Program-made: the position numbers and the translations under genes
IMG/VR virus record: IMGVR_UViG_3300010356_003454
Location: 72,820 to 136,819 of that record
Direction: 5' to 3' (one strand)
From: a virus
Lineage: Duplodnaviria > Heunggongvirae > Uroviricota > Caudoviricetes
Length of the DNA: 64,000 nucleotides
Notes under the pieces: generated by a model
Databases searched by the model: none
The model's input: only the letters and a program-made list of their open reading frames with translations
Told to the model about the DNA's origin: nothing
Shown here: piece by piece, positions 2,605 to 49,744 of the stretch
Layout of the letters: the number at the start of each line of letters is the position of its first letter
Numbering within the stretch: the stretch's first letter is position 1

Positions 2605-3039
2605 ATGAGAGCTAAAACTGTAAATGAAGATCAAAATTTCGAAAGAGGTAGGACTGCTAAAGCAGCTTTAGGTATTGGTGGGATAAATCTCTATGATTTA
2701 TACCAGGAAAGAATGGAGGAATTGGAAAGAGAAATATCAATGTCTAAGATTAATGCAGATACAGAATGGGGAGAATATCTTAGAGAGAATTTTGTTGGAA
2801 AGAAGATTACAGCACATATGACTCGAATGGTTACATTTAATATAAAGACAAAACAAAAATCGATAGATTCAGAAACTAAATATGGGGAATTTACTATTGT
2901 GGTACAAGATATTAAACCAGGAGAATCATTTAGTGATGCTATAGGTAGAAATGTGGAGATATCTCCACAAGCTATTGTGGCTGATATGGAAGGAAAGATA
3001 TACACCATGAGACTACATCAAAAAATCTATGTTGAGTAA
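2605..3039 (+). CDS. MRAK/FERG-leader family protein
   Basis: N-terminus MRAKTVNEDQNFERGRTAKAALGIGG matches the leader shared by more than 20 paralogs. The ATG at 2605 lies inside the tracked ORF, which starts at a TTG. Confidence 0.6.
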   Translation: MRAKTVNEDQNFERGRTAKAALGIGGINLYDLYQERMEELEREISMSKINADTEWGEYLRENFVGKKITAHMTRMVTFNIKTKQKSIDSETKYGEFTIVVQDIKPGESFSDAIGRNVEISPQAIVADMEGKIYTMRLHQKIYVE

Positions 3040-3407
3040 TGAGGGCTAAATTTGTTAATGAAAAAATGGATTTTGAAAGAGGCATCCATCCTAAACAGGC
3101 TTTGGATGTTGGCGGGATTTGTTTGGGAGAGGAGAGATGGAAAATGAAGAAGAAATTGGAGGACGATTGGAAATTCTTATTATTAACTCTTCTAGATGGT
3201 AAGACCATTTCAGCTCAGATGAATAAGAGATCCGCAAATGGCGGGAAGCTAACTGGAAAAGATACTTGGGGTAATTATACAGTTACTATTGAAGACTGGG
3301 AGGTCCCCGATATTGATGATATGGGGATCAATATAATAGGAACGGATAAAGAATACTATATTCTTCCTATTGATGATAAAAAGATATACATACATAATGC
3401 GCGCTAA
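3039..3407 (+). CDS. MRAK/FERG-leader family protein
   Basis: N-terminus MRAKFVNEKMDFERGIHPKQALDVGG. Confidence 0.6.
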   Translation: MRAKFVNEKMDFERGIHPKQALDVGGICLGEERWKMKKKLEDDWKFLLLTLLDGKTISAQMNKRSANGGKLTGKDTWGNYTVTIEDWEVPDIDDMGINIIGTDKEYYILPIDDKKIYIHNAR

Positions 3408-3945
3408 ACGAGTTCCATATAAGGCATACATATTCGATTTTGATGACACGTTGGTAAAAACTGATGCAAAGGTTCATGTTCTTAGAGATGGAAAACGTAT
3501 AAAATCTCTAACTCCTACAGAATTTAATCACTATATCTCTCAACCAGGAGAAACATTGGATCTAGAAGATTTCGTGGATCCAAGAATAATTATGAATGCT
3601 AAAAAATATAAAATGTGGCCTGCTCTTCAGAATATAGATGCTGCTAGAAAAATGGGAAGATCATCTTCAGATATATTCATTCTTACAGCTAGATCTCATA
3701 GAGCTCAACAGGCAATACACAATTACTTAACGAATAATGGAATTGATATTCCCTTAGAAAATGTCATTACTATCGGAACTGATTCAGATGAAGGATATGA
3801 TATTGCAGAGGAGAAGGGTAAGGTTTTACAGGATCTCAAAGACAGATATGCTGATGTATTCTTCTATGATGATAGTCCTGATAATATAGAGCTTGCTTCT
3901 AAAATTGGTGGCATTAAAACCAGATTAATTGATTGGAAAAAATAA
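3397..3945 (+). CDS. HAD-superfamily hydrolase (phosphatase/nucleotidase-like) with MRAK N-terminus
   Basis: Starts MRAKRV. HAD motif I is FDFDDTL. A Thr/Ser motif (ILTARSH) and a DD motif (FYDDSPDN) follow. Confidence 0.5.
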   Translation: MRAKRVPYKAYIFDFDDTLVKTDAKVHVLRDGKRIKSLTPTEFNHYISQPGETLDLEDFVDPRIIMNAKKYKMWPALQNIDAARKMGRSSSDIFILTARSHRAQQAIHNYLTNNGIDIPLENVITIGTDSDEGYDIAEEKGKVLQDLKDRYADVFFYDDSPDNIELASKIGGIKTRLIDWKK

Positions 3946-3953
3946 AGAGATAT

Positions 3954-4739
3954 ATGAGAGCTAAATTTATAAATGAGGAAAGATTTATTAGGGGAAAGAA
4001 CCCTAAACATGCCTTAAATATAGGAATGGCTAATAAAGTCTTTCAGTCAACAGGAAAACCTTATGGTGAAGGAGGTGGATATTCCTTTAATTATTATGGT
4101 CCTGAAAACTGGATGGATATCATTCAGTGGCTTCTAGATCAGGGATATAATGCGGAAGAGACGGAAGAGGTTATGAGAAGCAAACTGATGAGATGGACTT
4201 CTGATGAGTCTGGAAAGGATGATGGTAATTGCACTCTCGAGGATTTTATAAAATTCAATAATAATGCTGGATATAAGAATAGAGGGAAAACTCAGATAGA
4301 CGATTTCCTGGATCAGTATTTTCCAGATCCTAGTAGGGCAGAAAGAGTTAAAAGACAGATTGATGAAGATGCTGTAGGCGGGGTAAGTGCTCCAATGGGA
4401 ACCCTTAACAATACTCCTGGAATGGGAAGTGCTCAACCTGCTCCATCAGCATCAACTGGAGCTCTTGGAACTGCTCCTTCCGGCTCTGGGGATAAATGGG
4501 ATGCTTCTATAGGACCTATTAATACTCAGGCCCCATCTAAAAAGGTCAATGAGATGAATATTAATCCTCATGATAAATTAGGGGTAGCAATGGCTAAGAA
4601 AATGGGGGTTCCTCTAGTTTTCAAGAAGGGCAAGGGGGATAAGGATGTTGAACAAGTAAAAGTGGATGAAGATATCGATTTATCAACAAGCCTAATGACT
4701 TTTGATGAATGGGCAGAAAAATTCAATAAAAAATTATGA
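3954..4739 (+). CDS. MRAK/FERG-leader family protein with G/S/P-rich linker
   Basis: MRAKFINEERFIRGKNPKHALNIG leader. A low-complexity G/S/P/A linker lies mid-protein. Confidence 0.55.
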   Translation: MRAKFINEERFIRGKNPKHALNIGMANKVFQSTGKPYGEGGGYSFNYYGPENWMDIIQWLLDQGYNAEETEEVMRSKLMRWTSDESGKDDGNCTLEDFIKFNNNAGYKNRGKTQIDDFLDQYFPDPSRAERVKRQIDEDAVGGVSAPMGTLNNTPGMGSAQPAPSASTGALGTAPSGSGDKWDASIGPINTQAPSKKVNEMNINPHDKLGVAMAKKMGVPLVFKKGKGDKDVEQVKVDEDIDLSTSLMTFDEWAEKFNKKL

Positions 4740-4945
4740 AAATCGTGAAAGAATCTCTAGATGGAAAATCAGATTTGGAAGAGGTTTCCGAATCAGGAGG
4801 ATTTAGGCTAAAAGGAGTTACTTATGATATATGGAGGACCCCCGCAGGAAAGGTCTATGCAGGGGAGCAAGGAATTCTTAGTCATAAAGATACTCTCATC
4901 CCATGGGCTGAGATAAAAGAGCTCATGAAAAAATATTCAGCATAA
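4736..4945 (+). CDS. hypothetical protein
   Basis: ORF overlapping the upstream stop by 4 nt. Confidence 0.35.
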   Translation: MKIVKESLDGKSDLEEVSESGGFRLKGVTYDIWRTPAGKVYAGEQGILSHKDTLIPWAEIKELMKKYSA

Positions 4946-4993
4946 TAAAAACCTTTTGGTGCCCTTTCTATATAAATTCTAAAAAGAATAGAA

Positions 4994-6266: not shown

Positions 6267-6270
6267 TATT

Positions 6271-6477: not shown

Positions 6478-6501
6478 TTTAAATATACGTTAATTTTAAG
6501 G

Positions 6502-6536: not shown

Positions 6537-6563
6537 GACCATATAAATTAAAAAGAAGAGAAC

Positions 6564-10735: not shown

Positions 10736-11164
10736 ATGAAAGCTAGATTTGTCTTTGAAAATATAGAATTTAATCGCGGAAGGGATCCAAAGGATTCTCT
10801 TTTTGGATTAAGGCCTGGACAAGTGGTTATCCCTAATAGGAAAAAAAATCCTGATAAGAAAGGATATCTTAGAAATGGAATTTATTATATTCAAAGAGTT
10901 TTTCATGATAAATTTGGGGAGATCGACGGATATAGTATTTCCGGACTTGGCGATGTAGTATATTATGGAAATATAGAAGGATATCCAAGATTTGAAAAGT
11001 TTGGTGGACAACATCATACTTCTGTAAGACCCGATGAAGTAATAGGAATATCCGGAACCGATAAAGAAGTTTTTGAAAAATGGTGGAATAGTGAAGAGGG
11101 CAAAAAGAAAAGAGAATATATCCAGAAATGGGATAAAGTTGTCCCTTTTATTTCTAAATTTTAA
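10736..11164 (+). CDS. FERG-leader family protein (variant leader MKARFVFENIEFNRGRDPKDSLFG)
   Basis: Leader variant of the family consensus. Confidence 0.5.
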   Translation: MKARFVFENIEFNRGRDPKDSLFGLRPGQVVIPNRKKNPDKKGYLRNGIYYIQRVFHDKFGEIDGYSISGLGDVVYYGNIEGYPRFEKFGGQHHTSVRPDEVIGISGTDKEVFEKWWNSEEGKKKREYIQKWDKVVPFISKF

Positions 11165-22006: not shown

Positions 22007-22330
22007 ATGAAAAGTTACATTCATGAATTTCGCAAATGGGGACCAGTTTCTCGCTGCATCGTTCATATTAAAGAAGTAGGCGATTCTACTTGGATCGGAT
22101 TCGAAAACAGGAGGGATGGAACCTCGGTTACAAATGCTTCAGAAGATCTGGCTACGGGGATTGTTGCCAAAGAAGGCCTGGATCCAGCGAAATGCAGATT
22201 CTTCGAATTTTATCCAGAGTACGAAGGAGATGTAGATGAAATCACATATACCTGGGATTCAGAAGGAAAGGCAAGAAATCCCCAATGGAGACCATTTGTA
22301 AAAGCAGAAAATAATCCCTTTCTTGGATAA
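22007..22330 (+). CDS. hypothetical protein
   Basis: ORF. Confidence 0.35.
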   Translation: MKSYIHEFRKWGPVSRCIVHIKEVGDSTWIGFENRRDGTSVTNASEDLATGIVAKEGLDPAKCRFFEFYPEYEGDVDEITYTWDSEGKARNPQWRPFVKAENNPFLG

Positions 22331-22866
22331 TGGATTTTACGAGGGGCATAGAAGTTAAGCAGGCTATTGGAATAGGAAATCCAGATCGATTAGCTTTTAT
22401 AAAGGCATTTAATTCAGATCAATATACCGATCTTGCAGCTCTCCCGATAAACCATATTATTGATGGCGTAGGGATAGGTCTTATAACTATTGATGAGATA
22501 AAGATTTTTTTGGATAAGTTTGTTGAAAAATTTGATACTAATTCTAATTATCATAAGACCAGATGGGTTTTGGATGAATTTTTCAATACTTTTAATGTTA
22601 GTATAAGTGTTGAAAAACGTATCCCAAAAATTAAGATAAAATTTCAATTAGCTGAAAATAAATTTATTAGCTATAGGATGTGGAAAGAAGGCGATGAATA
22701 TTATGTAAGGGGTATTGGAACCTATTATTCTCCTAACTTTGATTCTAACCGGCCATTATTCAGATGTCCTGTGAACCAATCTTTTTTTGCAGGGATTCCC
22801 CCAATAACAATAATGTTTAGGGATATGGATAGAATAGTTAAAGATCTTATGTCATATAATAGGTGA
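22330..22866 (+). CDS. FERG-leader family protein (leader MDFTRGIEVKQAIGIGN, no MRAK)
   Basis: Truncated form of the leader. Confidence 0.45.
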   Translation: MDFTRGIEVKQAIGIGNPDRLAFIKAFNSDQYTDLAALPINHIIDGVGIGLITIDEIKIFLDKFVEKFDTNSNYHKTRWVLDEFFNTFNVSISVEKRIPKIKIKFQLAENKFISYRMWKEGDEYYVRGIGTYYSPNFDSNRPLFRCPVNQSFFAGIPPITIMFRDMDRIVKDLMSYNR

Positions 22867-22896: not shown

Positions 22897-23448
22897 ATGA
22901 AGAAAAAGTGGGTGTGGATCATTATTGCAGCTATTATAGTCCTTGTAGGATTTATAATTTTTATAAATGTTCGTCAGAAAAAACTTGATGCTAGGCCTTT
23001 CAATGTCTATGAATATCCCGAGACAATAAAGATTATTAATGGAACAGAATTTTCTAAAGCAGATACTATAATATTATCTCTAGCTCACCAAGTTTTTAAA
23101 TTCGATTCTGTTCAAATTCTTTTATACTATATTCCAGATCATTTGAATTCAGGAGAAATGGAATTTTATGGTATAGTTCAGCAGACTCCTTTTGATAAGA
23201 ATAAATTTCTGATATTGGTCAATAGAAAATTAGATCTTACAGATCTTTTTACGACTCTTTCTCATGAATTTGTTCATATCGATCAGTATAAGAGAGGAGA
23301 CCTAGAAATTATAGGAAAATATGCTGTTTGGCAAGGAGACACTTTAGATATGACACAGGTTAAATATGAGACTAGACCATTTGAAAAAGAGGCGTTTGGA
23401 AACCAGAGAGTTATTGCTAAAGAAGTAAAAGAATTCCTATATGAATGA
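22897..23448 (+). CDS. membrane-anchored HExxH metallopeptidase-like protein
   Basis: N-terminal TM helix. HEFVH motif. Confidence 0.4.
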   Translation: MKKKWVWIIIAAIIVLVGFIIFINVRQKKLDARPFNVYEYPETIKIINGTEFSKADTIILSLAHQVFKFDSVQILLYYIPDHLNSGEMEFYGIVQQTPFDKNKFLILVNRKLDLTDLFTTLSHEFVHIDQYKRGDLEIIGKYAVWQGDTLDMTQVKYETRPFEKEAFGNQRVIAKEVKEFLYE

Positions 23449-23966
23449 GAGCTAAAACTGTAAATTTCCAGAGGGGATTAGATCCGAAGGAGGCCTTGGA
23501 AATAGGTAATGAAAATCTAAGGCAATTCCATAAAGATATGGATAATGGAAATTTTTTGGCTCCTCTTCATATTTTGATGGATGGGCTGGAAAGAGGATAT
23601 ATCTCGGATAAAGAAGCTGATGAGTTTATAATTGGAGCAGTCAGAACTAGTGCTCCCAGATATTGGGAATGGACTAAATGGTTTGAGGATACAAGAAATA
23701 TCTATTGGTCTGAATTTAATGAGTCTCTAAATATTAATTTTACGCTTCCCGATTTTAAGAGGATTAAAACATGGATAGGTAAAATAACAGAACATGATGG
23801 AGGTTATTGGTTTAAGATGAGAACTTCTTCCACTGATAAAAATGGAAATGGATATGGCATAGAGACGGAAAATGTTTTTTCGGATGATGATTATGCTTTT
23901 ACATCTAAATTTATCTTGAATCAAATTAATAGAGTATTTACAGAAACAGTTAGAAATATAGATTAA
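23445..23966 (+). CDS. MRAK/FERG-leader family protein
   Basis: Leader MRAKTVNFQRGLDPKEALEIGN. Confidence 0.55.
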   Translation: MRAKTVNFQRGLDPKEALEIGNENLRQFHKDMDNGNFLAPLHILMDGLERGYISDKEADEFIIGAVRTSAPRYWEWTKWFEDTRNIYWSEFNESLNINFTLPDFKRIKTWIGKITEHDGGYWFKMRTSSTDKNGNGYGIETENVFSDDDYAFTSKFILNQINRVFTETVRNID

Positions 23967-32794: not shown

Positions 32795-33457
32795 ATGAAT
32801 TTCGAAAGAGGCAAAGATCCGCTTAGGTCAATGGGAATAGGTCATTCTCAGAAGAGAGAATTCGCCAGCATTAGAGAGGCCGCAGAATGGGCTCTTCTCT
32901 TCCCTGCTGAATACACCGATGGCCAGATTACTAAATGGTCCAGGGATATGATAAGCTCTGGCAGGCTGGAACTTCCTAATGGAGTTCATACCGGTTGGCT
33001 TCAGATGGTTAAATGGATGAAGGATAATATCCGTATTCCCTCTCTTTTCGGGAATGAAAAAATTGGTCTTAAGGAGGCTAAAAATGTGATAGACCTTATG
33101 AGAGAAATGATCCCAGTCTATCTGATGAAGGGGGATAACCTGATGGCTAATTATAATACAGCTCTTAAGGAACTATACGATCATGTAGGATTCAAAGAGG
33201 ATTGGGTGGTATATCCCGTTGATGATAGAACAGATATGTTCTGGTCTCTTGATGGCGATTCTGCTGTAAGATATTCTGAGACCGAAGAAAAGCTTAAGGA
33301 CGAAGCTGCTGGTGAATACTACGAAGATGAAATTTACAAGCAGAGGTTCTATTCCAAATGGATCTATGAAGGCCAGGATCTCACCATGATTTTTGTCGAT
33401 ACTCATGTTGATGGCATGAGATACTTTGCAATATTTAGTAATTCAAAAAAGATATGA
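32795..33457 (+). CDS. FERG-leader family protein
   Basis: MNFERGKDPLRSMGIGH. Confidence 0.55.
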   Translation: MNFERGKDPLRSMGIGHSQKREFASIREAAEWALLFPAEYTDGQITKWSRDMISSGRLELPNGVHTGWLQMVKWMKDNIRIPSLFGNEKIGLKEAKNVIDLMREMIPVYLMKGDNLMANYNTALKELYDHVGFKEDWVVYPVDDRTDMFWSLDGDSAVRYSETEEKLKDEAAGEYYEDEIYKQRFYSKWIYEGQDLTMIFVDTHVDGMRYFAIFSNSKKI

Positions 33458-33756
33458 AGCTAAATCCTGCAGGATACGGAAATCATAATAACCTCTGGTG
33501 CACAGCACGCAAATGGGGCATCACCTTTAAAATCATGGTCTTCTTCAATTCCGGAAATGCTTATATCATGAAGAGCACTAAGAAGAATTTTGATTCGACT
33601 CGGGATTACAATAAACTCTACAAAGAATTAAAGGAGTCATTAGCAGATATGGATTTTGTTCTCCAAACACCAAGAAAAAGGTATTTACACTGTAATATTA
33701 GAACTACCGCTAATCTCATGCATCATCTCAAACAAATGGGAATAAATGAACTTTGA
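33454..33756 (+). CDS. hypothetical protein
   Basis: ORF inside the tandem FERG array with no leader. Confidence 0.3.
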   Translation: MKLNPAGYGNHNNLWCTARKWGITFKIMVFFNSGNAYIMKSTKKNFDSTRDYNKLYKELKESLADMDFVLQTPRKRYLHCNIRTTANLMHHLKQMGINEL

Positions 33757-34081
33757 CAGGGATTCAGATATTAAAACTCGTCTTGGTATAGGAAGATATA
33801 CAGAAGAGAATCTGATTAGAATTATATCAGAAGCTCTTCGAAAATCTCATTCTTTTAGTGAATATGTTCTATCAAATATGCCGGTCTTGATATCTAGTCA
33901 TGTTGCTGAATGGATTCACCCTAAGACTGGCGGATATTTCAATCTTATAAAACCAGAAAAATTATCTATGGAATCTCATAATAAATTCCCTGGATATTTT
34001 ATTACTTATGACGATGGGGGATTTTCCTATGGTAATTTATCCCTATCAGCTTTTTTTAAAGATTTTAATATAGAGCTATGA
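33746..34081 (+). CDS. FERG-leader family protein
   Basis: MNFDRDSDIKTRLGIGR. Confidence 0.5.
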   Translation: MNFDRDSDIKTRLGIGRYTEENLIRIISEALRKSHSFSEYVLSNMPVLISSHVAEWIHPKTGGYFNLIKPEKLSMESHNKFPGYFITYDDGGFSYGNLSLSAFFKDFNIEL

Positions 34082-34410
34082 ATTTCGAAAGAGGTATAAG
34101 TCCTAAAAAATCAATGCGAATAGGCATTGGAAGTCAGGCTCTTCATTTAAGAGGCATTTATAATAGAAATATAATTTTCAGTACTTTACCTGATACCGAT
34201 GATACTGCGGTTGAATTTAGAGTAATCAATGGACCTGATGGACATAGGATTTTCAAAGAAATACAGGAAAATGGGATTCAATCGAAACATGAAAAGTATT
34301 GGGTTCATACAGGAGGGAGTCAAGGACATCTTCCTATTGATTGGATAGCTGGACGATGGATTGAGTATCTAAAGAGCTATTATAAAATACCAGAAAGAGA
34401 TGAATTTTGA
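34078..34410 (+). CDS. FERG-leader family protein
   Basis: MNFERGISPKKSMRIGIG. Confidence 0.55.
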   Translation: MNFERGISPKKSMRIGIGSQALHLRGIYNRNIIFSTLPDTDDTAVEFRVINGPDGHRIFKEIQENGIQSKHEKYWVHTGGSQGHLPIDWIAGRWIEYLKSYYKIPERDEF

Positions 34411-34678
34411 AAGAGGAAAAGACCCGAAAGAGGCTTTAGGAATAGGAATAGAACGAGCTGTTCTAAACATTATTCGGAGAAATATTTCGGATGCTGTTAT
34501 TTCTGTTGACGGGGAAATGAGAAAACATATAATAAGAGAAATAGAAAAATTTACTGGATGGAGAGAGGCAAAACATTGGACTTCTATGGATCAAAATAAG
34601 GTTTTTAGATTTATTAATCCGAAAGATGAAGCTAAAATAATTGTCATTAATTTAGATTATAGAAAAGACTATGCCTAA
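34400..34678 (+). CDS. FERG-leader family protein
   Basis: MNFERGKDPKEALGIGI. Confidence 0.55.
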   Translation: MNFERGKDPKEALGIGIERAVLNIIRRNISDAVISVDGEMRKHIIREIEKFTGWREAKHWTSMDQNKVFRFINPKDEAKIIVINLDYRKDYA

Positions 34679-34997
34679 TTTTGAAAGAGGAAAAAATCCA
34701 AAAGAAGCCTTAGGAATAGGCTTATTCTCAAAGAGATGTTTTGATTCAGTACTAGCTGCTAGAAAATGGCTAGTTCAAAATCATGTGGATATTTTAGGAT
34801 TGAATGGCCTTTGCGATCCATATCCTACTGAAGAGCAATTTGCAAATCTTCGAGCTTATGTTGAAAAATATATTTCCTATAGCGATGATGAATCTTGGAC
34901 ATCAGATAGCCTTGTTAATGGGGTAGCTCAGCTCTATAGGGAACTACATGAAGTAAGAAATTCTATTGGAAATATAATGAACGGTAATAATAGATAA
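34671..34997 (+). CDS. FERG-leader family protein
   Basis: MPNFERGKNPKEALGIGL. Confidence 0.55.
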   Translation: MPNFERGKNPKEALGIGLFSKRCFDSVLAARKWLVQNHVDILGLNGLCDPYPTEEQFANLRAYVEKYISYSDDESWTSDSLVNGVAQLYRELHEVRNSIGNIMNGNNR

Positions 34998-36694: not shown

Positions 36695-37093
36695 ATGAGA
36701 GCTAAAAAAGTAAATCAGTTATCTATGGATTTTGATTACAGGGATGAGGATCAATTTCCAGATGCTCAAGGGGAGGATCTTGATTTCTTAGAAAAATTAG
36801 CCTGGCAATTTGAAGAAAGATTTCCGATGGGAACTTATGCTTTTAGTTTTTGGCGTCCTGAAGAAGATGGTCCAGCTGTTTTTGAAGTTATAACAAGTGA
36901 AAATCCAGATAAGAAGTTTTTTGATGCTATGTATTTTAAGGCTGAAGGAGGATTTGGATTTAGTATTGGCGAAGGCCCAGTTAGAAAACCCATGTATCCT
37001 GAATTGCTGAAGCTAAAAAATAAAGGGATAGAGGTTAAAAAATATTTAATATCTAATGATCGCTGGTCTGAATTTGAAAAAATGAATTCTTAA
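36695..37093 (+). CDS. MRAK-start family protein (diverged leader)
   Basis: MRAKKVNQLSMDFDYRDED. Confidence 0.4.
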   Translation: MRAKKVNQLSMDFDYRDEDQFPDAQGEDLDFLEKLAWQFEERFPMGTYAFSFWRPEEDGPAVFEVITSENPDKKFFDAMYFKAEGGFGFSIGEGPVRKPMYPELLKLKNKGIEVKKYLISNDRWSEFEKMNS

Positions 37094-37095: not shown

Positions 37096-37611
37096 ATGAG
37101 AGCAAAAACTGTTAATGAGAATAATCAATTTGAAAGAGGACAGGATCCTAAAGATGCTATGGATATAGGAAGATACAAAGATCTTAAGGATAAAGATTTT
37201 GATATATGGAATTTTTTTCGATTTCTTCAGTTTAAAGAACATTCTGAAAGTAATGGAGTAACTTTTTATTCAAGAGGTGGGGGACAAGATGAATGCTATG
37301 ATTTTAAAAGAATTTATTATTTCGATGAATATAACTGGATTTCTGATGAAGAAATAATGGATATATTTAGTAGTATTAATAAAAAAGAGCTTCTTAAAAT
37401 TTCGGATAATATAGAGTTATTAGCTTTTAAAGGATCTACTCAACAGAGCACATATTCTTTCCAAGTAGTATTTAAGGGCGATTATCAAGATTATATGGAT
37501 AGGGGGGAGGAAGAGACTATTGAAAAAATAGAAGAATATATTTCAGAATACTTCACTGAAAATTCCGAAGAATTTATTAATTTTGAGGATGAAGAATATG
37601 AAGATGAATAA
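37096..37611 (+). CDS. MRAK/FERG-leader family protein
   Basis: MRAKTVNENNQFERGQDPKDAMDIGR. Confidence 0.55.
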   Translation: MRAKTVNENNQFERGQDPKDAMDIGRYKDLKDKDFDIWNFFRFLQFKEHSESNGVTFYSRGGGQDECYDFKRIYYFDEYNWISDEEIMDIFSSINKKELLKISDNIELLAFKGSTQQSTYSFQVVFKGDYQDYMDRGEEETIEKIEEYISEYFTENSEEFINFEDEEYEDE

Positions 37612-37627: not shown

Positions 37628-38128
37628 ATGAAACTAGTTGCTGAATCCCTAAATGAAATAAAAAATAGGGAAAAATTGATTAAAAGAAGGGAAAAATTAT
37701 TATCCGACTTAGAAAAAGCAAGATCTAATCATAAAAAAGCAGTGGATAGAAAGTCAGAATTTATTGAAAAATATGGAGAGGACGCTTGGTGGAATAATCT
37801 AAGCTATTACAAAGATGGGTATAATGCTTGGAAATATGAGAGAATGAGATATCCCGGAAAGGCTGCTTGGAATGGGGAAGGGCCCATACAGAGAGCGATA
37901 AATAATACATTTATTAAGAAATCCAATATTGAGGAGGAACTTAAAGAAATAGAGGCTAAATTATCTGGGGAGCAGGGGGAGACTGAATTAATGAATGATA
38001 AAGATGTATATATACCTGGGGTTTCGGAATATGACCCAGATCTGGATTATAAATATGCAATGACACATCCGGGCTATAAAGGACCCCCTGGAGGACCATA
38101 TACAAATTATTATAACGATCTGGATTAA
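37628..38128 (+). CDS. MKLVAESLNE-leader family protein
   Basis: Starts MKLVAESLNE, a second leader type shared with the genes at 47297 and 47948. AGAGGA lies upstream of the ATG. Confidence 0.45.
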   Translation: MKLVAESLNEIKNREKLIKRREKLLSDLEKARSNHKKAVDRKSEFIEKYGEDAWWNNLSYYKDGYNAWKYERMRYPGKAAWNGEGPIQRAINNTFIKKSNIEEELKEIEAKLSGEQGETELMNDKDVYIPGVSEYDPDLDYKYAMTHPGYKGPPGGPYTNYYNDLD

Positions 38129-44758: not shown

Positions 44759-45988
44759 ATGAGAGCTCGATTTGTACTTTACGAATTCGCTAAAAACAAA
44801 GATTCTAAATATTATGCTCCTGATTATCTTATACAGGAGCTTATGGATGCTGTTAACAAGTATGTTCCTCTCCATGAGATAGATCATATAGTTGAACCAG
44901 CTTCTGGCGACGGAGCGCTAATACCTTTTATTGATAAGATAGCTAATGCCTATAATATTGATACCAGCTATTATGATCTAAAACCAGATCCAGGCAATCC
45001 TCGTATTGAACAGCAAAACTTCTTAGACTATTCTCCAGAACCATATTTCAGTCCATCTAGGCTTGTACTCACAGGACCACCTTATGGGGAACCTGGAGCT
45101 ACAGCCAAACTATGGAAGCAGTTCGCTCAGAAGGCTTCAGAGGTGGCAGGATATGTCGCTTTTATCTCTCCGGTTACTTGGCTTGATGTGAAACATCCTG
45201 TTCCTCATCTAGAACTTATCTATCAGAAGGACATGGGGTGGGTTAAATTCAGGGGCAGCGAAGCTTTCGGCGGTGAAGACCATCCTGTTAAGACTGCTAT
45301 ACTTATCTATAAAACTATCAAAGAGCCACAAACTGAAGACTTTTCATTTATAGATAACGATTTCATTATTCAGGAGATCTATGGTCGTGATAACTTCAGG
45401 AATAGAAAATACGATTATTATATTCTCTCCTGGGGCCGTGATTCAGGCAGAGTTAATACCTCAGGAAGGTATCCTGATGGCCGACTATTTTCTAAGGCAA
45501 TTGGAATAAAGGTCTTGGATGAGGCTCGTAGGGATGATTTAGAAGCGTTTTTAGAGACTTTCGAACAGGACTATAAGGATAAGATCGCCAGATACTCAAT
45601 TACAACAGCTAATGTCTTAAGTGTGCCTCGTTTTAAGAGATTTCTCGGAAACGCTCTATATTCGGGGATGAATGAATCTATAGACTTCGAAAGAGAAGGG
45701 AATCCATACGAGAAATTACGTATCGGTCGTAAGGTAACAAGGCCTTATCCTCAAATGAAGCCGAAAGAATTTTTTCAATGGTATCAGTCTGAGGCCTTTC
45801 CATATTATGATTCCGATGAGTTCTCTTTTTCTAGCGTGCTTTCAGATCTTGTTAATGACGAGGAGTCTACAGATGAAGAACTTCGAGAGGTATGGACTGA
45901 AGAACTTGATGTTCCAGAAGAAGTTATAGATAAACTATTACCTATGCGGGGTTATTTCTTAGATTTCCGCTATATTCAGAACATATGA
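44759..45988 (+). CDS. MRAR-leader protein with methyltransferase-like fold (non-canonical GPPY) and C-terminal FERG module
   Basis: Leader MRARFVLYEF. Motif-I-like EPASGDGAL. TGPPYGE sits where NPPY would be. A C-terminal FEREGNPYEKLRIGR...RPYPQM...MRGYF module is paralogous to the 46607 C-terminus. Confidence 0.5.
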   Translation: MRARFVLYEFAKNKDSKYYAPDYLIQELMDAVNKYVPLHEIDHIVEPASGDGALIPFIDKIANAYNIDTSYYDLKPDPGNPRIEQQNFLDYSPEPYFSPSRLVLTGPPYGEPGATAKLWKQFAQKASEVAGYVAFISPVTWLDVKHPVPHLELIYQKDMGWVKFRGSEAFGGEDHPVKTAILIYKTIKEPQTEDFSFIDNDFIIQEIYGRDNFRNRKYDYYILSWGRDSGRVNTSGRYPDGRLFSKAIGIKVLDEARRDDLEAFLETFEQDYKDKIARYSITTANVLSVPRFKRFLGNALYSGMNESIDFEREGNPYEKLRIGRKVTRPYPQMKPKEFFQWYQSEAFPYYDSDEFSFSSVLSDLVNDEESTDEELREVWTEELDVPEEVIDKLLPMRGYFLDFRYIQNI

Positions 45989-46617
45989 AACTAGTACCAG
46001 AACATATAGATGAGGTAATGGGCTTCCAAAGAGGAATAGATCCTAAGGAGGCTATTGGTATAGGAAGGCTAGCGAATATACCTAGCGAAAAGATCCGTAA
46101 TGCTTTTGCATGTGTCCGCAATTATTCTCTTGAAGATCTTGAGGATATGTATAGAAGGATTAGAGCTAAATCTAATATCTCTCTTGATGGAGTTCCTATA
46201 GAGAAATTATCTAATCATGAATGGATAGAATTTAATAATAAAGTTGTTAATGGTATTAAATCTCTTAGGAGAAGAAAGGTAAAAGCGGTCTCTCCATTTG
46301 GAGAAGGCGATATCCTAAAAGTAGTTCATCACGGAAGGACTTATTTTGGAGTTTATGATGGAATAGACAAACATGGGAGGATTAAGGCAAAGGGGAATAG
46401 GGCTAGATTAGCATTTGGCTTAGACAGATATACTCTCGCAACTCCGGAAGAGGCAGAAGCTTTTAGAAAAGAAGCAATTGAAAGAGAGAAACAGAGATGG
46501 GATTTGCAAATTCGCCGAGTTAAAATGCTGCTTTCAATGGGATCTGCTAAACCGGAAGATCTAGAAAGACTTATAAGAGACTATAAAAATACATTCCGAG
46601 AAGATTATGAGGGCTAG
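45985..46617 (+). CDS. FERG-leader family protein
   Basis: MGFQRGIDPKEAIGIGR. Confidence 0.5.
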   Translation: MKLVPEHIDEVMGFQRGIDPKEAIGIGRLANIPSEKIRNAFACVRNYSLEDLEDMYRRIRAKSNISLDGVPIEKLSNHEWIEFNNKVVNGIKSLRRRKVKAVSPFGEGDILKVVHHGRTYFGVYDGIDKHGRIKAKGNRARLAFGLDRYTLATPEEAEAFRKEAIEREKQRWDLQIRRVKMLLSMGSAKPEDLERLIRDYKNTFREDYEG

Positions 46618-47293
46618 AAGAGTCATAGAATCTATCAATTTCGAAAGGGGAAAGGATCCTAAAACAGTTATGGATATAGGAAGGACTAAATATGCGTTTC
46701 CTGTCGAAGATATTATTTTCAGAGGGGGAAATGTAATATCTCCTGAAGAGGGCGATAAGTATTTAAGGACAGTTTTACCTAGGAGATTGAAGAGCGTTAT
46801 ATCCAGGCCAGGTGCAGTTTGGAATTACCCAAGATTCAAAGATGGCCTTCATTATGCAGATGCTAAATGGATCATGAGACAAGGCTATAGCGGAATTAAA
46901 TATAAGGGAACTTTTTATCCATTTCCTAAAATAGAGGGATTTGATTTCCAAAGGAGCGGTGAAGAAGAAATCGATGAATCTGTAAATTTCGAAAGAGGAA
47001 AAGATCCTAAAAAGGTTTTACGTCTTGGAAGAGTTCGTCCGTATCCTGATATGACTGTGGAACAATTCCAGAGATGGTTTAGAGAAGAAATAGTTCCTTA
47101 TTTAGATGATGATGGTGAACAGGCTATTGTAGATAATCTATTGATGAATGATTGGGAGGCTGATTGGGAAGTAGCTGAATATTTAAGGGGAAGGCATCTG
47201 TCGCCGGAGATTGTTGACGATTTAATGTATATGAGGGGCTACTTTAATGACAGAGAATATATAAAGAGACTATTTGACGAAAAATTATTTTAA
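46607..47293 (+). CDS. MRAR/FERG-leader protein with two FERG modules
   Basis: N-terminal MRARRVIESINFERGKDPKTVMDIGR. Internal VNFERGKDPKKVLRLGRVRPYPDM...MRGYF. Confidence 0.5.
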   Translation: MRARRVIESINFERGKDPKTVMDIGRTKYAFPVEDIIFRGGNVISPEEGDKYLRTVLPRRLKSVISRPGAVWNYPRFKDGLHYADAKWIMRQGYSGIKYKGTFYPFPKIEGFDFQRSGEEEIDESVNFERGKDPKKVLRLGRVRPYPDMTVEQFQRWFREEIVPYLDDDGEQAIVDNLLMNDWEADWEVAEYLRGRHLSPEIVDDLMYMRGYFNDREYIKRLFDEKLF

Positions 47294-47296
47294 GAT

Positions 47297-47941
47297 ATGA
47301 AGCTAGTAGCAGAATCACTTAATGAGGCCTTAAATGAGGGAGCTCTTATAAAATTTGGAAGAAGCACGCAGAGTTTGAAAGAGGAGTATCCTATTTTCAA
47401 GAACTTATCTGTTGCAATGATACTTGAAGCTCTTCAGAGAGTGAATTCTACTCATTTTACAGGAGGAAAATTAGATTTATTCAAGTTCTATGACTTTATA
47501 AAGAAATTTAGGGGATATACTAAATCCTTTAATGATATGAAGGAGGTTATGACTGAAATCGCTCCGGTTTTAGGTATTGTGGATCAGATTCGCTTTTCTA
47601 GAGAGGAAAGGAGCGAGATTAAATTTAAAGAGAAAGCTCTAAATGGAGAGGTTCCTATAGAGTATTTTGATGAGGCTGAGATTCCAGAGGATACTATAGA
47701 AGATGAGGATTATGTTGTTAGAAGCATGGGCGGGGATACTGAACCCGCTTTCTATAGATTTGATAGAGAACTTAATCAGAGAGAGCGAAATCTATTAAGA
47801 GTATCTTATGCCCTTAATCATGGTAATCCTGAAGTTAGCACATGGAGAACTTATCTTGGTGCAGTTCCGGCTAAAGTAGGATTTGTTCGAAGAAATAATA
47901 GAAGTTTTGATTATACAGCAGGACTTGCAAAAAAGAGATGA
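47297..47941 (+). CDS. MKLVAESLNE-leader family protein
   Basis: MKLVAESLNEALNEG. Confidence 0.45.
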   Translation: MKLVAESLNEALNEGALIKFGRSTQSLKEEYPIFKNLSVAMILEALQRVNSTHFTGGKLDLFKFYDFIKKFRGYTKSFNDMKEVMTEIAPVLGIVDQIRFSREERSEIKFKEKALNGEVPIEYFDEAEIPEDTIEDEDYVVRSMGGDTEPAFYRFDRELNQRERNLLRVSYALNHGNPEVSTWRTYLGAVPAKVGFVRRNNRSFDYTAGLAKKR

Positions 47942-47947
47942 TAAAAT

Positions 47948-48571
47948 ATGAAATTAGTAGCAGAATCACTTAAGGAATTCTTAGGAATTAATAGGCTGGA
48001 CGAATTTGAGAGATCCGGAGATCCTCATAAGACTATGGGTATAGGACTCGAACCAGTTATTAAAGACTGGATGAGAAAGAATACTCATTATAATGTTGAT
48101 GAGAAGCCAGCCGAATACTCATGGAGAAAACCTCCTACAGTCTACAGTCTCTTATGGCTTTCTGTGAAGCATAATCATCCGCAGTGGGTTAAAGCTCTTT
48201 TGCAAAAGGGATATGATCCTAATGAGAACGGTGGTGCTGCTCTAAGATGGGCTTGCGGTCTTGGTTATAAAGATATAGTAGGTCTCCTTCTTGATGCTGG
48301 AGCTGATCCAGATGCTAAAGGACCAAGCGGTCCTCAGGAGGCTTATGAATGGGCAAGGCGAGAAGGTCATAGAGATATTATTAAAATGCTGGATATGAGT
48401 AAGGCGGGATATACTTTTACAGATAAAGGTCCGGATTTTGAACTACCAGAAGAGCCAGAAGAAGAGTCTAAAAAGACCCCCGAAGCTCCTCCCGTTCCGG
48501 CTAAGCCCGTAGAGCGACCCGAAGAGGAAGAGGAAGAGGAAGAGGAAGAAGAAAAAGGAGGCTGGTTTTAA
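47948..48571 (+). CDS. MKLVAESL/FERSGDP-leader ankyrin-repeat protein
   Basis: Leader MKLVAESLKEF...FERSGDPHKTMGIGL. Ankyrin repeats (NGGAALRWACGLGYKDIVGLLLDAGADPDAKG). C-terminal poly-E tail. Confidence 0.55.
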   Translation: MKLVAESLKEFLGINRLDEFERSGDPHKTMGIGLEPVIKDWMRKNTHYNVDEKPAEYSWRKPPTVYSLLWLSVKHNHPQWVKALLQKGYDPNENGGAALRWACGLGYKDIVGLLLDAGADPDAKGPSGPQEAYEWARREGHRDIIKMLDMSKAGYTFTDKGPDFELPEEPEEESKKTPEAPPVPAKPVERPEEEEEEEEEEEKGGWF

Positions 48572-49455
48572 TGAAGGCTATGAGAGTCATAGAATCGGTA
48601 GAATTTCAGAGAGGAGCAGATCCATATACTTCTTTAGGTATAGGAAAGTCTACTCAAAGGGATTTTTCTGGTGGTAAAGAACTCATAGAATGGGCTTATA
48701 ATTTTCCTGCAGTATGGTCTAAGGGGGAGATCCCGGAATGGAATGATTCTGATTACATAATTAGAAAACCATTCGGCGGATACCTCGAAGAAGTCTATAT
48801 ACAGAGAATGAGGAATATAAAGCTTATAGTAATAAAATGGATTAAAGATAATATTACTATTAATGGAGAGCCTTTAAGCCTTAAAGAAGCTATGAATATG
48901 TTTGAAGAAATTCAGAAGTTCGTTATTAAGAATCTAGAAAGGGAACGGGGAATTAGAGAGAGCATAGATTTTCATAAAGGAGGTAATCCGCTGGATACGC
49001 TAGAGGTTGGCAGAATAGAGGAAAGAAAGGATGCAGCATATAGATCTTTTATGGATTGGCTTTCTACATACTCATTTAAGGAGGCAGATGTTATTGAAGA
49101 GACTTATGATCAACCTTATGGATTCTTTGGTGATGATGAAAAGGAGGCTTTGATATTTAATGGATTAACTGTTGATGAAGTTTCTAAGAAAACTCCAGAA
49201 GAAATGGAGAGATATTTCAAAATTGTAGAAGAGGTTTTCGGCCTCACTTTTTGGGCCGCTGAAATAGCTAAATTGGAATATGAAGAATATAAAACTATGC
49301 CAGAGGAGGATAAAGAGGAGCTGGAGCAAAAGATAGAAGATGATTTTGGAACATATAATTTTTTGGAATATCTTGTAAAGTATTTCATTAATAAATGGCC
49401 AGGAAAGGTAAAAATAAAAGATCCATATGAGAGCAAAAAGCGTAAACGAAGCTAA
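48571..49455 (+). CDS. FERG-leader protein with two modules
   Basis: N-terminal MKAMRVIESVEFQRGADPYTSLGIGK. Internal IDFHKGGNPLDTLEVGR. Confidence 0.5.
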   Translation: MKAMRVIESVEFQRGADPYTSLGIGKSTQRDFSGGKELIEWAYNFPAVWSKGEIPEWNDSDYIIRKPFGGYLEEVYIQRMRNIKLIVIKWIKDNITINGEPLSLKEAMNMFEEIQKFVIKNLERERGIRESIDFHKGGNPLDTLEVGRIEERKDAAYRSFMDWLSTYSFKEADVIEETYDQPYGFFGDDEKEALIFNGLTVDEVSKKTPEEMERYFKIVEEVFGLTFWAAEIAKLEYEEYKTMPEEDKEELEQKIEDDFGTYNFLEYLVKYFINKWPGKVKIKDPYESKKRKRS

Positions 49456-49744
49456 TTTCGAGAAGGGACAAGATCCTAAGGATGCTCTGGGTATTGGAGT
49501 TGGCGAAAAACTCCGAATGGAGGGTATAGATGCTCTTACTCATTTCCTATATTATGCTAATGCAAAGGATATGATAAAAAAAGTCTGGAATGACTGGGAT
49601 CATATGTGGGATAAGCTAAAGAACAAAGTCGGGGATGGATATATGGATCCGAATGCTCTTATGAGTTTTATAAGAGATTTAGATGTGGAGAATCAGAAAA
49701 AGCTATATGATTATATTATAAAGAACCATTCGAATAAATGGTAA
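49427..49744 (+). CDS. MRAK/FERG-leader family protein
   Basis: MRAKSVNEANFEKGQDPKDALGIGV. Confidence 0.55.
   Translation: MRAKSVNEANFEKGQDPKDALGIGVGEKLRMEGIDALTHFLYYANAKDMIKKVWNDWDHMWDKLKNKVGDGYMDPNALMSFIRDLDVENQKKLYDYIIKNHSNKW

What the first reader, a model, noticed from the sequence alone, without database searches (positions are those of the whole stretch)
2605..49744. A >20-member paralogous gene family defined only by a conserved N-terminal leader fused to unrelated protein bodies
At least 22 ORFs begin with variations of one peptide: MRAK-x-VNE-(x2-3)-FERG-x-DPK-x-ALGIG. Examples are MRAKTVNEDQNFERGRTAKAALGIGG, MRAKFVNEKMDFERGIHPKQALDVGG, MNFERGKDPKEALGIGI, MRARRVIESINFERGKDPKTVMDIGR, MKAMRVIESVEFQRGADPYTSLGIGK and MRAKSVNEANFEKGQDPKDALGIGV. 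After the leader the proteins diverge completely. One carries ankyrin repeats (47948). One is a HAD phosphatase (3397). One has a methyltransferase-like fold (44759). One has a G/S/P-rich linker (3954). Others are small, unrelated, unrecognised bodies. Synonymous positions vary between copies (ttc/ttt gaa/gag aga/agg gga/ggc...), so conservation is at the protein level and not a nucleotide signal. A second leader, MKLVAESLNE, is shared by three genes (37628, 47297, 47948). It co-occurs with the FERG-like box (FERSGDP) in the ankyrin protein (47948). A conserved N-terminal tag on diverse cargo suggests a targeting or processing signal. One candidate is a capsid-targeting propeptide removed by a prohead protease. 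The V/L-N-E and V-I-E tripeptides at leader positions 6-9 resemble the (L/I)-x-E cleavage context of T4-type proteases. Other candidates are an ejection/secretion tag and a shared recognition handle for a phage chaperone or regulator. I do not recognise this arrangement as a described family.
Basis: partly seen in the sequence, partly recalled or inferred. Interest (0 to 1): 0.9.

Follow-up and report, generated by a model that had tools for sequence, protein, structure and literature searches.

The report
Portable leader tag on phage proteins
An uncultured large phage marks the start of dozens of unrelated small proteins with one 20-residue tag, which relatives also use to string up to 12 such proteins into one chain; the tag most likely lets the head-maturation protease cut these proteins and helps load them into the virus particle.

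Summary
23 plus-strand ORFs between 2605 and 49744 carry the leader, and 18 of them hold 20 copies of the box F-E-R-G-x-D-P-K-x-x-[LM]-x-[IV]-G.

- The box also occurs inside proteins (46607, 48571, 44759).
- It is not private to this genome. An exhaustive profile search found 1,715 protein clusters, all uncultured and virus-only. The best are 1,000-1,500-aa ORFs with 10-12 boxes about 117 aa apart.
- 'MKLVAESLNE' is the first half of the same leader.

The full motif is [ILV]-x-E-[SN]-h-[ND]-FERGxDPKx[AS][ML]x[IV]G. It is selected at protein level, predicted flexible, and followed by more than 200 unrelated soluble bodies.

Best reading (confidence about 0.45): the upstream half is a cleavage site for a T4-type prohead protease, and the modules are head-loaded cargo, analogous to T4 internal proteins.
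- Proteases of the nearest lineage (Lak and other huge phages) carry a near-invariant V-N-E-S just after the catalytic domain.
- Portal orthologues differ by a MAKKLNE extension.
- Box genes sit directly after the T4-type portal gene.

The protease of this clade was not found and no cleavage is shown. No Pfam or PHROG family covers the tag.

The parts
2605..3039 (+). Gene with full leader MRAKTVNEDQN and box FERGRTAKAALGIGG (nt 2638-2682). The body is a long helix followed by a beta sheet.
   Evidence: AF2 model: residues 1-12 have pLDDT below 50 and the box is not packed against the body. Orthologues keep the leader.
3039..3407 (+). Gene with leader MRAKFVNEKMD and box (nt 3072-3116). Paralogue of 2605.
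3397..3945 (+). Leader-only gene (MRAKRVPYKAY...) with no box. The body is HAD-like (FDFDDTL).
   Evidence: Pfam Hydrolase E 3.5e-5, below the curated cut-off.
3954..4739 (+). Gene with leader MRAKFINEER and variant box FIRGKNPKHALNIG (nt 3984-4025). Contains a G/S/P-rich linker.
   Evidence: E 8e-8, not a seed.
4736..4945 (+). Leader-only gene of the MKLV type (MKIVKESLDG).
10736..11164 (+). Gene with leader MKARFVFENIE and degenerate box FNRGRDPKDSLFGL (nt 10769-10810).
   Evidence: E 5e-8, not a seed.
22330..22866 (+). Bare form: MD followed by degenerate box FTRGIEVKQAIGIG (nt 22336-22377).
   Evidence: E 3e-3.
23445..23966 (+). Short leader MRAKTVN and box FQRGLDPKEALEIG (nt 23466-23507).
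32795..33457 (+). Bare form MN and box FERGKDPLRSMGIG (nt 32801-32842). The body family recurs in relatives; its C-terminal half matches phrog_24232.
33746..34081 (+). Bare form with degenerate box FDRDSDIKTRLGIG (nt 33752-33793).
   Evidence: E 1e-2.
34078..34410 (+). Bare form MN and box FERGISPKKSMRIG (nt 34084-34125).
34400..34678 (+). Bare form MN and box FERGKDPKEALGIG (nt 34406-34447).
34671..34997 (+). Bare form MPN and box FERGKNPKEALGIGL (nt 34680-34724).
36695..37093 (+). Leader-only gene (MRAKKVNQLSMDFDYRDED).
37096..37611 (+). Gene with full leader MRAKTVNENNQ and box FERGQDPKDAMDIG (nt 37129-37170).
   Evidence: The same protein is on an ENA contig.
37628..38128 (+). Leader-only gene MKLVAESLNE. 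The ORF could also start at 37589.
44759..45988 (+). N-terminal MRARFV leader on a body with methyltransferase-like motifs, then an internal junction GMNESID and box FEREGNPYEKLRIG (nt 45686-45727). The C-terminal module is homologous to module 2 of 46607.
   Evidence: No Pfam or PDB hit for the N-terminal domain.
45985..46617 (+). MKLVPEHIDEVMG leader and box FQRGIDPKEAIGIG (nt 46024-46065).
46607..47293 (+). Two-module protein. Leader MRARRVIESIN and box 1 (nt 46640-46681); internal junction EIDESVN and box 2 (nt 46988-47029).
   Evidence: domain E 4.5e-17 and 1.5e-12. In homologues module 1 is swapped while module 2 is kept.
47297..47941 (+). Leader-only gene MKLVAESLNE.
   Evidence: Homologue in L034 at 42% identity.
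47948..48571 (+). MKLVAESLKE leader, then box FERSGDPHKTMGIGL (nt 48005-48049), then ankyrin repeats.
   Evidence: Pfam Ank_2 1.5e-17.
48571..49455 (+). Two-module protein. Leader MKAMRVIESVE and box 1 (nt 48604-48645); internal junction GIRESID and box 2 FHKGGNPLDTLEVG (nt 48970-49011).
   Evidence: domain E 4e-15 and 4e-4.
49427..49744 (+). Leader MRAKSVNEAN and box FEKGQDPKDALGIG (nt 49457-49498).

Best explanation
The window belongs to an uncultured phage distantly related to Lak phages and other huge phages. This phage and its clade use a portable linear tag of about 20 residues, [ILV]-x-E-[SN]-h-[ND]-F-E-R-G-x-D-P-K-x-[AS]-[ML]-x-[IV]-G, to mark the start of small soluble protein modules of about 100-120 aa with hundreds of unrelated folds.

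A module can be encoded in three ways: as its own gene behind an 8-11-residue leader (MRAKxVNE.., MKLVxESLNE..), as a bare gene (MNFERG..), or concatenated with up to 11 others in one polyprotein-like ORF.

I propose two functional halves.
- The upstream h-x-E|[SN] is a cleavage site for the phage's T4-type (S77) prohead protease. Cutting there removes the short leader or separates the polyprotein into single modules. All three encodings then end with nearly the same N-terminus.
- The retained FERG..IG peptide is a flexible docking handle. It could bind the prohead core or scaffold, or act as an exosite for the protease.

The modules would then be head-internal cargo ejected into the host, a diversifying arsenal comparable to the T4 internal proteins that share only a capsid targeting sequence.

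Shown: the motif, its distribution, protein-level selection, its flexibility in models, module shuffling, the T4-type portal of the clade, and the V-N-E-S signature of related proteases.
Inferred: cleavage, packaging, and the role of the FERG half.
For: Anatomy
- 628 copies give sharp motif borders. E(-4) is 97% in internal and 92% in N-terminal copies; S(-3) is 78%; F0 100%; R+2 98%; G+3 90-95%; P+6 92-96%; G+13 97%. Nothing is conserved outside -6..+13 in internal copies. Spacing has a median of 117 aa.
- The upstream half is dispensable. Bare MNFERG genes are common (6 of 23 ORFs here; 17 of 25 small metagenome proteins). This fits a cut that only has to create such an end.
- 22 of 31 recurrent body families occur both as first and as internal module.
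- AF2 models put leader and box outside the fold: pLDDT below 50 for residues 1-12 and only a 4-residue helix at DPKxxL.

Protease link
- T4-type proteases cut after Glu in a tripeptide motif. The T4 CTS is the first 10 residues, with residues 8 and 10 needed for processing (PMC5694885, PMC9026906).
- T4 gp24 starts MAKINELLRESTTT (read; the cut after LRE is from my own knowledge).
- The nearest deposited relatives (Lak at 47% clamp-loader identity) and Al-Shayeb huge phages encode S77 proteases.
- In 50 non-identical proteases of that lineage the segment just after the catalytic domain reads VNES in 33, VYES 5, VNEA 5, INES 4, other 3. It is followed by [FYL]-G-F, so it matches the junction up to F0.
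- [VI]NES occurs 156 times against 22.5 expected in those loci, with 2-4 copies in many protease-scaffold ORFs.
- L238 shares a gene at 64% identity with a box-rich contig. Its protease-scaffold has 13 [VIL]-N-E, including KINES and SLNESYSFRK.

Head link
- The clade has a T4-type portal (Pfam Portal_T4, 3e-54).
- Portal orthologues start M-[AS]-GFT.. in most loci, but MAKKLNE-AGFT.. or MARLNE-SGFT.. in two lineages.
- Box genes lie directly downstream of the portal, on the same strand, in at least 11 of 32 loci. T4 has the core proteins gp67 and gp68 at that position.

Distribution
- 1,715 clusters, virus-only.
Against: - No S77 protease was found in the window, in any box-bearing locus, or within 10 kb of the portal in 32 clade loci. 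The protease argument rests on relatives.
- The most conserved part (FERG..IG) lies on the P' side and would not be removed, unlike the T4 CTS. Its role is a guess.
- Box genes are scattered through replication and tail/baseplate regions as well.
- Box genes are very numerous (20 boxes in 47 kb), which is a lot of cargo.
- Leader-type N-termini also sit on proteins not expected in heads: an AAA_5 ATPase, and an SLT protein with a membrane segment.
- N at -5 is only 26% of internal copies, so the match to V-N-E-S is to a looser h-x-E-S.
- Close relatives by clamp loader (60-72% identity) have no boxes within 10 kb of it.
- There are no proteomic data.
Confidence: 0.45

Rival explanations
1. Cytoplasmic docking motif. 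The box is a short linear motif by which many early or accessory effector modules bind one conserved hub. The hub could be a host chaperone, a protease adaptor (making the box a shared degron), the ribosome or polymerase, or a phage enzyme that modifies them. There would be no packaging, and multi-module ORFs would act as uncut multivalent proteins.
For: - The box is flexible and outside the fold.
- It works at internal positions.
- Many box genes lie among replication and nucleotide-metabolism genes typical of early regions.
- Bodies are soluble, with mixed pI and no membrane segments, and include ankyrin repeats.
- MKLV-type leaders sit on an AAA_5 ATPase.
Against: - It does not explain why h-x-E-[SN] is 92-97% conserved upstream yet absent from bare forms.
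- It does not explain the identity of that half with the conserved post-domain site of related prohead proteases.
- It does not explain the portal MAKKLNE extension.
- It does not explain the synteny with the portal.
Confidence: 0.25
2. Polyprotein processing by a different, dedicated protease acting in the cytoplasm. A candidate is the DUF2201_N zinc metallopeptidase-VWA protein with its MoxR-like AAA_5 partner, which sits among box genes. The box would be the recognition element, and the aim would be stoichiometric co-expression of many small proteins.
For: - A 573-591-aa HExxH metallopeptidase-VWA protein (Pfam DUF2201_N 4e-26) and an AAA_5 ATPase recur in 8 box-bearing loci each. In L002 they are flanked by box genes.
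- ORFs with 10-12 modules call for some processing.
Against: - Such MoxR/VWA pairs are common in large phages and bacteria without boxes (my own knowledge).
- No specificity for Glu is known for them.
- Co-occurrence was seen in only 8 of 77 fragments and could not be tested at genome level.
- The h-N-E-S match to S77 protease-scaffold proteins points elsewhere.
Confidence: 0.1
3. Recombination or cassette junction. The conserved segment persists mainly because it lets modules be swapped, duplicated and fused, like the junction motifs of polymorphic toxins. It would have little biochemical role of its own.
For: - Module shuffling at the box is seen. P0169 and P0111 share module 2 of 46607 but have different first modules. 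The C-terminal module of 44759 is homologous to module 2 of 46607.
- The same body families occur in first and internal positions.
- Box genes are inserted between core genes in both orientations.
Against: - Synonymous sites are randomised to genome codon usage. Third-position identity is 0.47, and exact shared runs have a median of 7 nt and a maximum of 18 nt. That is too short for efficient homologous exchange, so selection acts on the peptide.
- Near-invariant residues across 1,715 clusters need a protein-level function.
Confidence: 0.08
4. One very divergent domain family. Box and bodies would be a single homologous fold whose N-terminal element alone stayed recognisable.
For: - Uniform module size (median body 99 aa; spacing 117 aa).
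- Sequence searches cannot exclude deep homology among dark-matter bodies.
Against: - 647 bodies fall into 240 BLAST clusters, 152 of them singletons.
- Bodies include ankyrin repeats and, here, a helix plus beta-sheet fold; a HAD-like body (3397) and a body with methyltransferase-like motifs (44759, N-terminal domain) carry only the leader.
- The box is not packed against the body in the models.
Confidence: 0.04

Closest known systems
T4 capsid targeting sequence (CTS) of internal proteins IPI/IPII/IPIII, and the short propeptides of gp24, gp67 and gp68 cut by gp21
   Same: - A short N-terminal peptide is the only thing shared by otherwise unrelated, fast-evolving small proteins (PMC3012670).
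- It is about 10 residues long and ends in h-x-E, with separate targeting and processing positions (PMC9026906).
- P1' is Ser in gp24.
- Genes lie next to the portal.
   Different: - There is no sequence homology to MKTYQEFIAE.
- The strongest conservation here (FERGxDPKxxLxIG) lies downstream of the putative cut and would be retained.
- Modules are also concatenated into ORFs with up to 12 units.
- There are tens of copies per 50 kb, against about 3 internal-protein (IP) genes in T4 (my own knowledge).
- Packaging is untested.
Propeptide-bearing paralogous ejection or inner-body proteins of giant phages (phiKZ, 201phi2-1, SPN3US)
   Same: - Paralogue families share identical short N-termini that contain x-X-E sites (for example MANFVKSKLARESVE of SPN3US gp53/gp54).
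- They are cut by a T4-type protease that also trims its own C-terminus (PMC5694885).
   Different: - The cleavage motif there is A/S/G-X-E, not h-N-E-S.
- Those propeptides are often longer than 100 aa.
- They have no retained box and no multi-module ORFs.
- No homologue of the box exists in any of 50,697 GenBank phage records.
Viral polyproteins with repeated protease sites (RNA viruses; ASFV pp220/pp62)
   Same: One ORF encodes many functional units separated by a conserved short junction.
   Different: - These are tailed dsDNA phages.
- The units are also encoded as single genes.
- The junction carries a 14-residue conserved peptide beyond any plausible cleavage site.
- No protease has been assigned.
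Junction motifs of polymorphic toxins (CdiA VENN, Rhs PxxxxDPxGL) and shared leaders of RiPP precursor families
   Same: A conserved peptide precedes hypervariable, swappable C-terminal parts, with many paralogues per genome.
   Different: - No large delivery domain is present.
- No immunity gene is evident.
- No adjacent maturation enzymes are evident.
- The bodies are folded domains of about 100 aa or more, not toxin tips or short core peptides.

Membership tests
T4-type CTS / prohead-protease-processed head proteins | A short N-terminal peptide (about 20 aa or less) shared by otherwise unrelated proteins | tested here: met
   8-11-residue leader M-[KR]-A-[KR]-x-[VI]-x-E. F is at residue 12 in 73 of 150 proteins. 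Bodies fall into 240 clusters.
T4-type CTS / prohead-protease-processed head proteins | The leader ends in the protease motif hydrophobic-x-Glu | tested here: met
   I/L/V at -6 in about 77% of internal and 85% of N-terminal copies. E at -4 in 97% and 92%. S, N or A at -3.
T4-type CTS / prohead-protease-processed head proteins | The same phage encodes an S77 (gp21-type) prohead protease | tested here: inconclusive
   Not in the window and not in any box-bearing or portal locus. Present in Lak, other huge phages and L100, and in L238, which shares one gene at 64% identity with a box-rich contig.
T4-type CTS / prohead-protease-processed head proteins | T4-type head morphogenesis genes in the clade | tested here: met
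   L077:6914-8746 matches Pfam Portal_T4 at 3.4e-54. There are 32 portal loci in the clade.
T4-type CTS / prohead-protease-processed head proteins | The proteins are present in virions and N-terminally trimmed | not testable with these tools
   This needs virion or metaproteome mass spectrometry.
T4-type CTS / prohead-protease-processed head proteins | Sequence homology to the T4 CTS or internal proteins | tested here: not met
   No hit of the consensus or of a 10-box protein in any GenBank phage record, which include the T4-like phages. The resemblance is functional only.
Any curated protein family (Pfam, PHROGs) | A profile hit that covers the leader or box | tested here: not met
   No family covers residues 1-30 of any member (Pfam; PHROGs).
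Polymorphic toxin systems | A conserved large N-terminal delivery region, a C-terminal toxin and an adjacent immunity gene | tested here: not met
   Modules are about 100 aa and follow one another without delivery domains. No toxin domains appear in 49 recurrent body families.
RiPP precursor families with a shared leader | A short core peptide and neighbouring maturation enzymes | tested here: not met
   Body size in the wider set has a median of 99 aa (5th-95th percentile 73-153), and window proteins with the leader are 69-409 aa; window bodies include ankyrin repeats and a confidently modelled fold.

The most novel reading that the evidence does not exclude
A clade of large uncultured phages may load their capsids with a very large, rapidly shuffled repertoire of small effector domains, possibly more than 100 per genome. 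The domains would be made as leader-tagged singles or as 'effector polyproteins' of up to 12 units. The head protease would cut them at h-x-E|S, and a new retained docking peptide (FERGxDPKxxLxIG) would hold or sort them. That would be a generalised cargo-loading code for a dsDNA virus, larger in scale than the T4 CTS/IP system and different from it in logic.
Probability: 0.35. Interest if true: 0.85.

Novelty: new variant of a known kind. Interest (0 to 1): 0.72.

Why it matters
If the reading holds, the tag gives a sequence-only way to list the proteins a group of uncultured large phages inject together with their DNA. These are the first weapons to meet host defences, and here they are more than 200 families of unknown folds.

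It would also show that tailed dsDNA phages use polyprotein expression with junction cleavage, a strategy usually associated with RNA viruses.

The tag could also serve as a compact, portable peptide for loading foreign proteins into capsids.

Even if packaging is wrong, a 20-residue motif that is nearly invariant across 1,715 protein clusters and absent from Pfam, PHROGs, 50,697 GenBank phage records and the GTDB species representative genomes (apart from one mis-binned phage contig) points to an unknown conserved partner that is worth finding.

Tried and rejected
- **Nucleotide-level signal or translation-start effect.** Rejected. Codon usage at conserved columns equals genome usage, third-position identity is 0.47, and the box is conserved inside ORFs.
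- **Alternative genetic code creating or hiding gene borders.** Rejected. The standard code gives 94% coding density, with stops TAA 71, TGA 21, TAG 7, and adjacent box genes lie in different frames.
- **Self-cleavage at Asp-Pro, or via Ser or Asn.** Unlikely. D+5 is only 74-81%, S-3 is replaced by N or A in N-terminal copies, and N-1 is 33-43%.
- **Known families.** No Pfam, PHROG or PDB support for leader or box. The Foldseek search of the 2605 model gave nothing below E 0.07.
- **Literature search.** The string 'NFERG' and huge-phage/polyprotein terms found no description.
- **GenBank phages.** No copy of the box, including in Lak.
- **Cellular genomes.** Two pattern hits: one by chance and one on a mis-binned 2.9-kb digester contig.
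- **Hunt for the clade's protease.** It failed in four ways: T4 head proteins by tblastn against the loci; two S77 HMMs against all held ORFs; protease-seeded scans of IMG/VR, whose hits were all box-free and had portals at most 46% identical; and 10-kb flanks of 32 clade portals.
- **Second AF2 model.** The two-module 46607 model was too weak (pLDDT 49) to say more than that both boxes are unstructured.
- **Resemblances recalled from memory and not pursued.** These were ClpX N-degron motifs, the lambda O N-terminus, helix-hairpin-helix GIG hairpins, double-glycine leaders and adenain sites. The conserved positions do not fit or could not be tested.

Full report
**1. The observation**

The window is AT-rich (about 35% GC). 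Almost all genes are on the plus strand, and the standard code gives 94% coding density.

Motif scans, a gene list and a small HMM run on all 892 six-frame ORFs find the peptide only at the start of plus-strand genes, or inside them. The forms are:
- Full leader plus box: 2605, 3039, 3954, 10736, 23445, 37096, 46607, 48571, 49427.
- Box right after the initiator Met: 22330, 32795, 33746, 34078, 34400, 34671.
- MKLV-type leader plus box: 45985, 47948.
- Leader without box: 3397, 36695, 44759 (MRAK type); 4736, 37628, 47297 (MKLV type).

That makes 23 ORFs, of which 18 hold 20 boxes.

Three boxes are internal. 46607 and 48571 each have a second box, and the only box of 44759 follows a 300-aa N-terminal domain. 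The C-terminal module of 44759 is homologous to the second module of 46607.

Conservation is at the protein level. Codon choice at the conserved columns follows genome-wide usage. Pairwise identity is 0.64/0.77/0.47 at codon positions 1/2/3. In-register exact nucleotide runs have a median of 7 nt.

It needs two corrections: the box is not strictly N-terminal, and MKLVAESLNE is the first half of the same leader rather than a second one. Relatives read MKLVxESLNFERG and MKLIKESLNEFERG.

**2. The motif is widespread, virus-only and undescribed**

No Pfam or PHROG family covers the leader or box.

A profile of the window's leaders recovered small metagenome proteins starting MNFERGKDPK.. or MRAKTVNE..NFERG.

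A degenerate DNA pattern hit 77 stretches of IMG/VR contigs up to 133 kb, often several per contig. Those loci share core genes with the window at 60-70% amino-acid identity.

An exhaustive HMMER search of 1.84 billion cluster representatives gave 1,715 proteins at E of 1e-3 or better, and 71 at 1e-30 or better. The best are 1,000-1,500-aa proteins with 8-12 boxes.

None of 50,697 GenBank phage records has the box. In the GTDB species genomes the pattern hit twice: once by chance and once on a mis-binned 2.9-kb digester contig.

The nearest deposited relatives by clamp loader are the Lak megaphages, at 47% identity. One clade contig is 260 kb.

**3. Anatomy of the motif**

From 628 copies in the 150 best proteins the motif is:

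[ILV](-6) x E(-4) [SN](-3) [VLI] [NDS] F(0) E R G x D P K x [AS] [ML] x [IV] G(+13)

- Conservation: F0 100%, R+2 98%, G+3 90-95%, P+6 92-96%, G+13 97%.
- E-4 is 97% in internal and 92% in N-terminal copies.
- In internal copies nothing is conserved upstream of -6 or downstream of +13.
- N-terminal copies add M-[KR]-A-[KR]-x before the hydrophobic residue.
- Boxes are a median of 117 aa apart.

The 647 bodies fall into 240 BLAST clusters, 152 of them singletons. Among 49 recurrent families only ankyrin repeats are recognised by Pfam, and there are three weak PHROG hits. Bodies are soluble and of mixed pI.

22 of 31 recurrent body families occur both as first and as internal module. Homologues of 46607 keep module 2 but swap module 1.

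The AF2 model of the 2605 protein (pLDDT 79.6) leaves residues 1-12 below pLDDT 50. The box forms only a 4-residue helix and is not packed on the helix plus beta-sheet body. The weak model of 46607 shows the same for both of its boxes.

The tag is therefore a flexible linear motif that delimits modules. It is not part of a fold.

**4. What the two halves suggest**

The upstream half (h-x-E-[SN]) is nearly invariant whenever anything precedes the box. It is simply missing in the bare MNFERG genes. This is expected if its only job is to be cut so that the box ends up near a free N-terminus.

T4-type prohead proteases cut after Glu in a hydrophobic/small-x-E motif. The T4 capsid targeting sequence (CTS) is the first 10 residues of otherwise unrelated internal proteins, with residues 4 and 7 needed for targeting and 8 and 10 for processing (PMC3012670, PMC5694885, PMC9026906). 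T4 gp24 starts MAKINELLRESTTT (read; the cut after LRE is from my own knowledge).

*4a. Is such a protease plausible in this lineage?*

A relative at 43% clamp-loader identity (L100) has a gp21-like protease fused to a scaffold-like repeat region. Its best GenBank matches are the huge phages of Al-Shayeb et al. and the Lak phages.

I looked at 50 non-identical proteases of this lineage from IMG/VR. The segment right after the catalytic domain reads ..PGFxxAxLx[RK]-V-N-E-S-[FYL]-G-F. T4, phiKZ and SPN3US proteases trim their own C-terminus (PMC5694885), which is why I read this conserved site as an autocleavage site. The counts are VNES 33, VYES 5, VNEA 5, INES 4, other 3.

[VI]NES occurs 156 times against 22.5 expected in those loci, with 2-4 copies in many protease-scaffold ORFs.

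L238 shares a gene at 64% identity with a box-rich contig. Its protease-scaffold has 13 [VIL]-N-E tripeptides, including KINES and SLNESYSFRK.

The junction h-N-E-S-h-x-F therefore copies the signature site of this lineage's head protease, up to the invariant Phe.

*4b. Is there a link to heads in the box-bearing clade itself?*

- L077 encodes a T4-type portal (Pfam Portal_T4, 3e-54).
- Among 32 portal loci of the clade, box genes lie immediately downstream on the same strand in at least 11 loci. T4 has the core proteins gp67 and gp68 at that position.
- Most portal orthologues start M-[AS]-G-F-T... Two lineages instead start MAKKLNE-AGFT.. and MARLNE-SGFT... This is a leader of the same kind on a bona fide head protein, and it ends exactly where the leaderless orthologues begin.

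**5. Limits**

- I could not find the protease of the box-bearing clade. There is no S77 hit in the window, in any box locus, or within 10 kb of the 32 portals.
- The conserved FERG half would remain on the mature protein, unlike the T4 CTS. Its role as a docking site on the core or scaffold, or as a protease exosite, is inference.
- Box genes are also scattered through replication and baseplate regions.
- Close relatives by clamp loader have none within 10 kb of that gene.
- Leader-type N-termini occur on an AAA_5 ATPase and on an SLT protein.
- A zinc metallopeptidase-VWA/MoxR pair recurs among box genes and is an alternative protease candidate.
- No cleavage or packaging has been observed.

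**6. Verdict**

It is an undescribed, virus-specific tag that punctuates hundreds of unrelated small modules, whether they are encoded singly or as polyprotein-like chains.

Best explanation (confidence about 0.45): it is a prohead-protease site plus a retained docking peptide on head-loaded cargo. That would be a new variant of the T4 CTS/internal-protein principle.

Main rival (confidence about 0.25): a cytoplasmic docking motif with no packaging.

Metaproteomic N-termini, or a complete genome of a box-bearing phage, would decide between them.

Noticed in passing
window 1116, 2580, 10724, 13849, 20705, 27299, 50782, 58765: The octamer GATATATA occurs 8 times, always on the plus strand and 12-44 nt upstream of a gene start. 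Two copies sit right after hairpin plus T-run terminators. It is probably a promoter element of this phage. Three of the eight precede GIY-YIG-like genes.
   Followed up: partly
window 6564-8006; L057:5525-6700 (-): The family-B DNA polymerase appears split. The window ORF (480 aa) holds only the exonuclease domain and the start of the polymerase domain. A relative has a separate 391-aa polymerase-domain ORF.
   Followed up: no
window 20730-21332, 27325-28164, 58781-59539: Three paralogous genes look like GIY-YIG homing endonucleases by their N-terminal sequence. Homologues occur in 24 of the box-bearing loci, the most widespread non-box family there.
   Followed up: no
L002:5473-7032 and 8116-9837 (-); also L036, L051: An HExxH metallopeptidase-VWA protein (Pfam DUF2201_N/DUF2201) and a MoxR-like AAA_5 ATPase with an MKKQLVFESL leader recur among box genes (8 loci each). 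They are a possible alternative processing machine.
   Followed up: partly
L302-L305, L329, L309 (portal genes): Portal orthologues differ by an N-terminal MAKKLNE or MARLNE extension that ends exactly at the start of the leaderless orthologues.
   Followed up: yes
L077:5603-6235: A gene with a TnsA-like endonuclease N-terminal domain lies about 0.7 kb upstream of the portal gene, with one 225-aa ORF between them (Pfam 2e-13).
   Followed up: no
window 1154-2527: A 457-aa protein has a very long Glu-rich low-complexity region. Its N-terminus, YINESKSITLKRGYGAKQPVVVG, faintly resembles the junction plus box. It has no Pfam hit.
   Followed up: no
window, box column +12: Ile at box position +12 is encoded by ATA in 13 of 15 copies, against 5.5 expected from genome usage. 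This is the only conserved column with a codon bias.
   Followed up: no
window 13133-13819 (-): The only sizeable minus-strand ORF (228 aa) lies in a plus-strand coding gap where the AT skew turns negative. It is probably a real oppositely oriented gene.
   Followed up: no
L318:14116-15033; L310:9214-10125: A 304-305-aa protein starts MRARLVNESYNLGFKK. In box-free relatives it occupies the slot downstream of the portal where other relatives have box genes.
   Followed up: no
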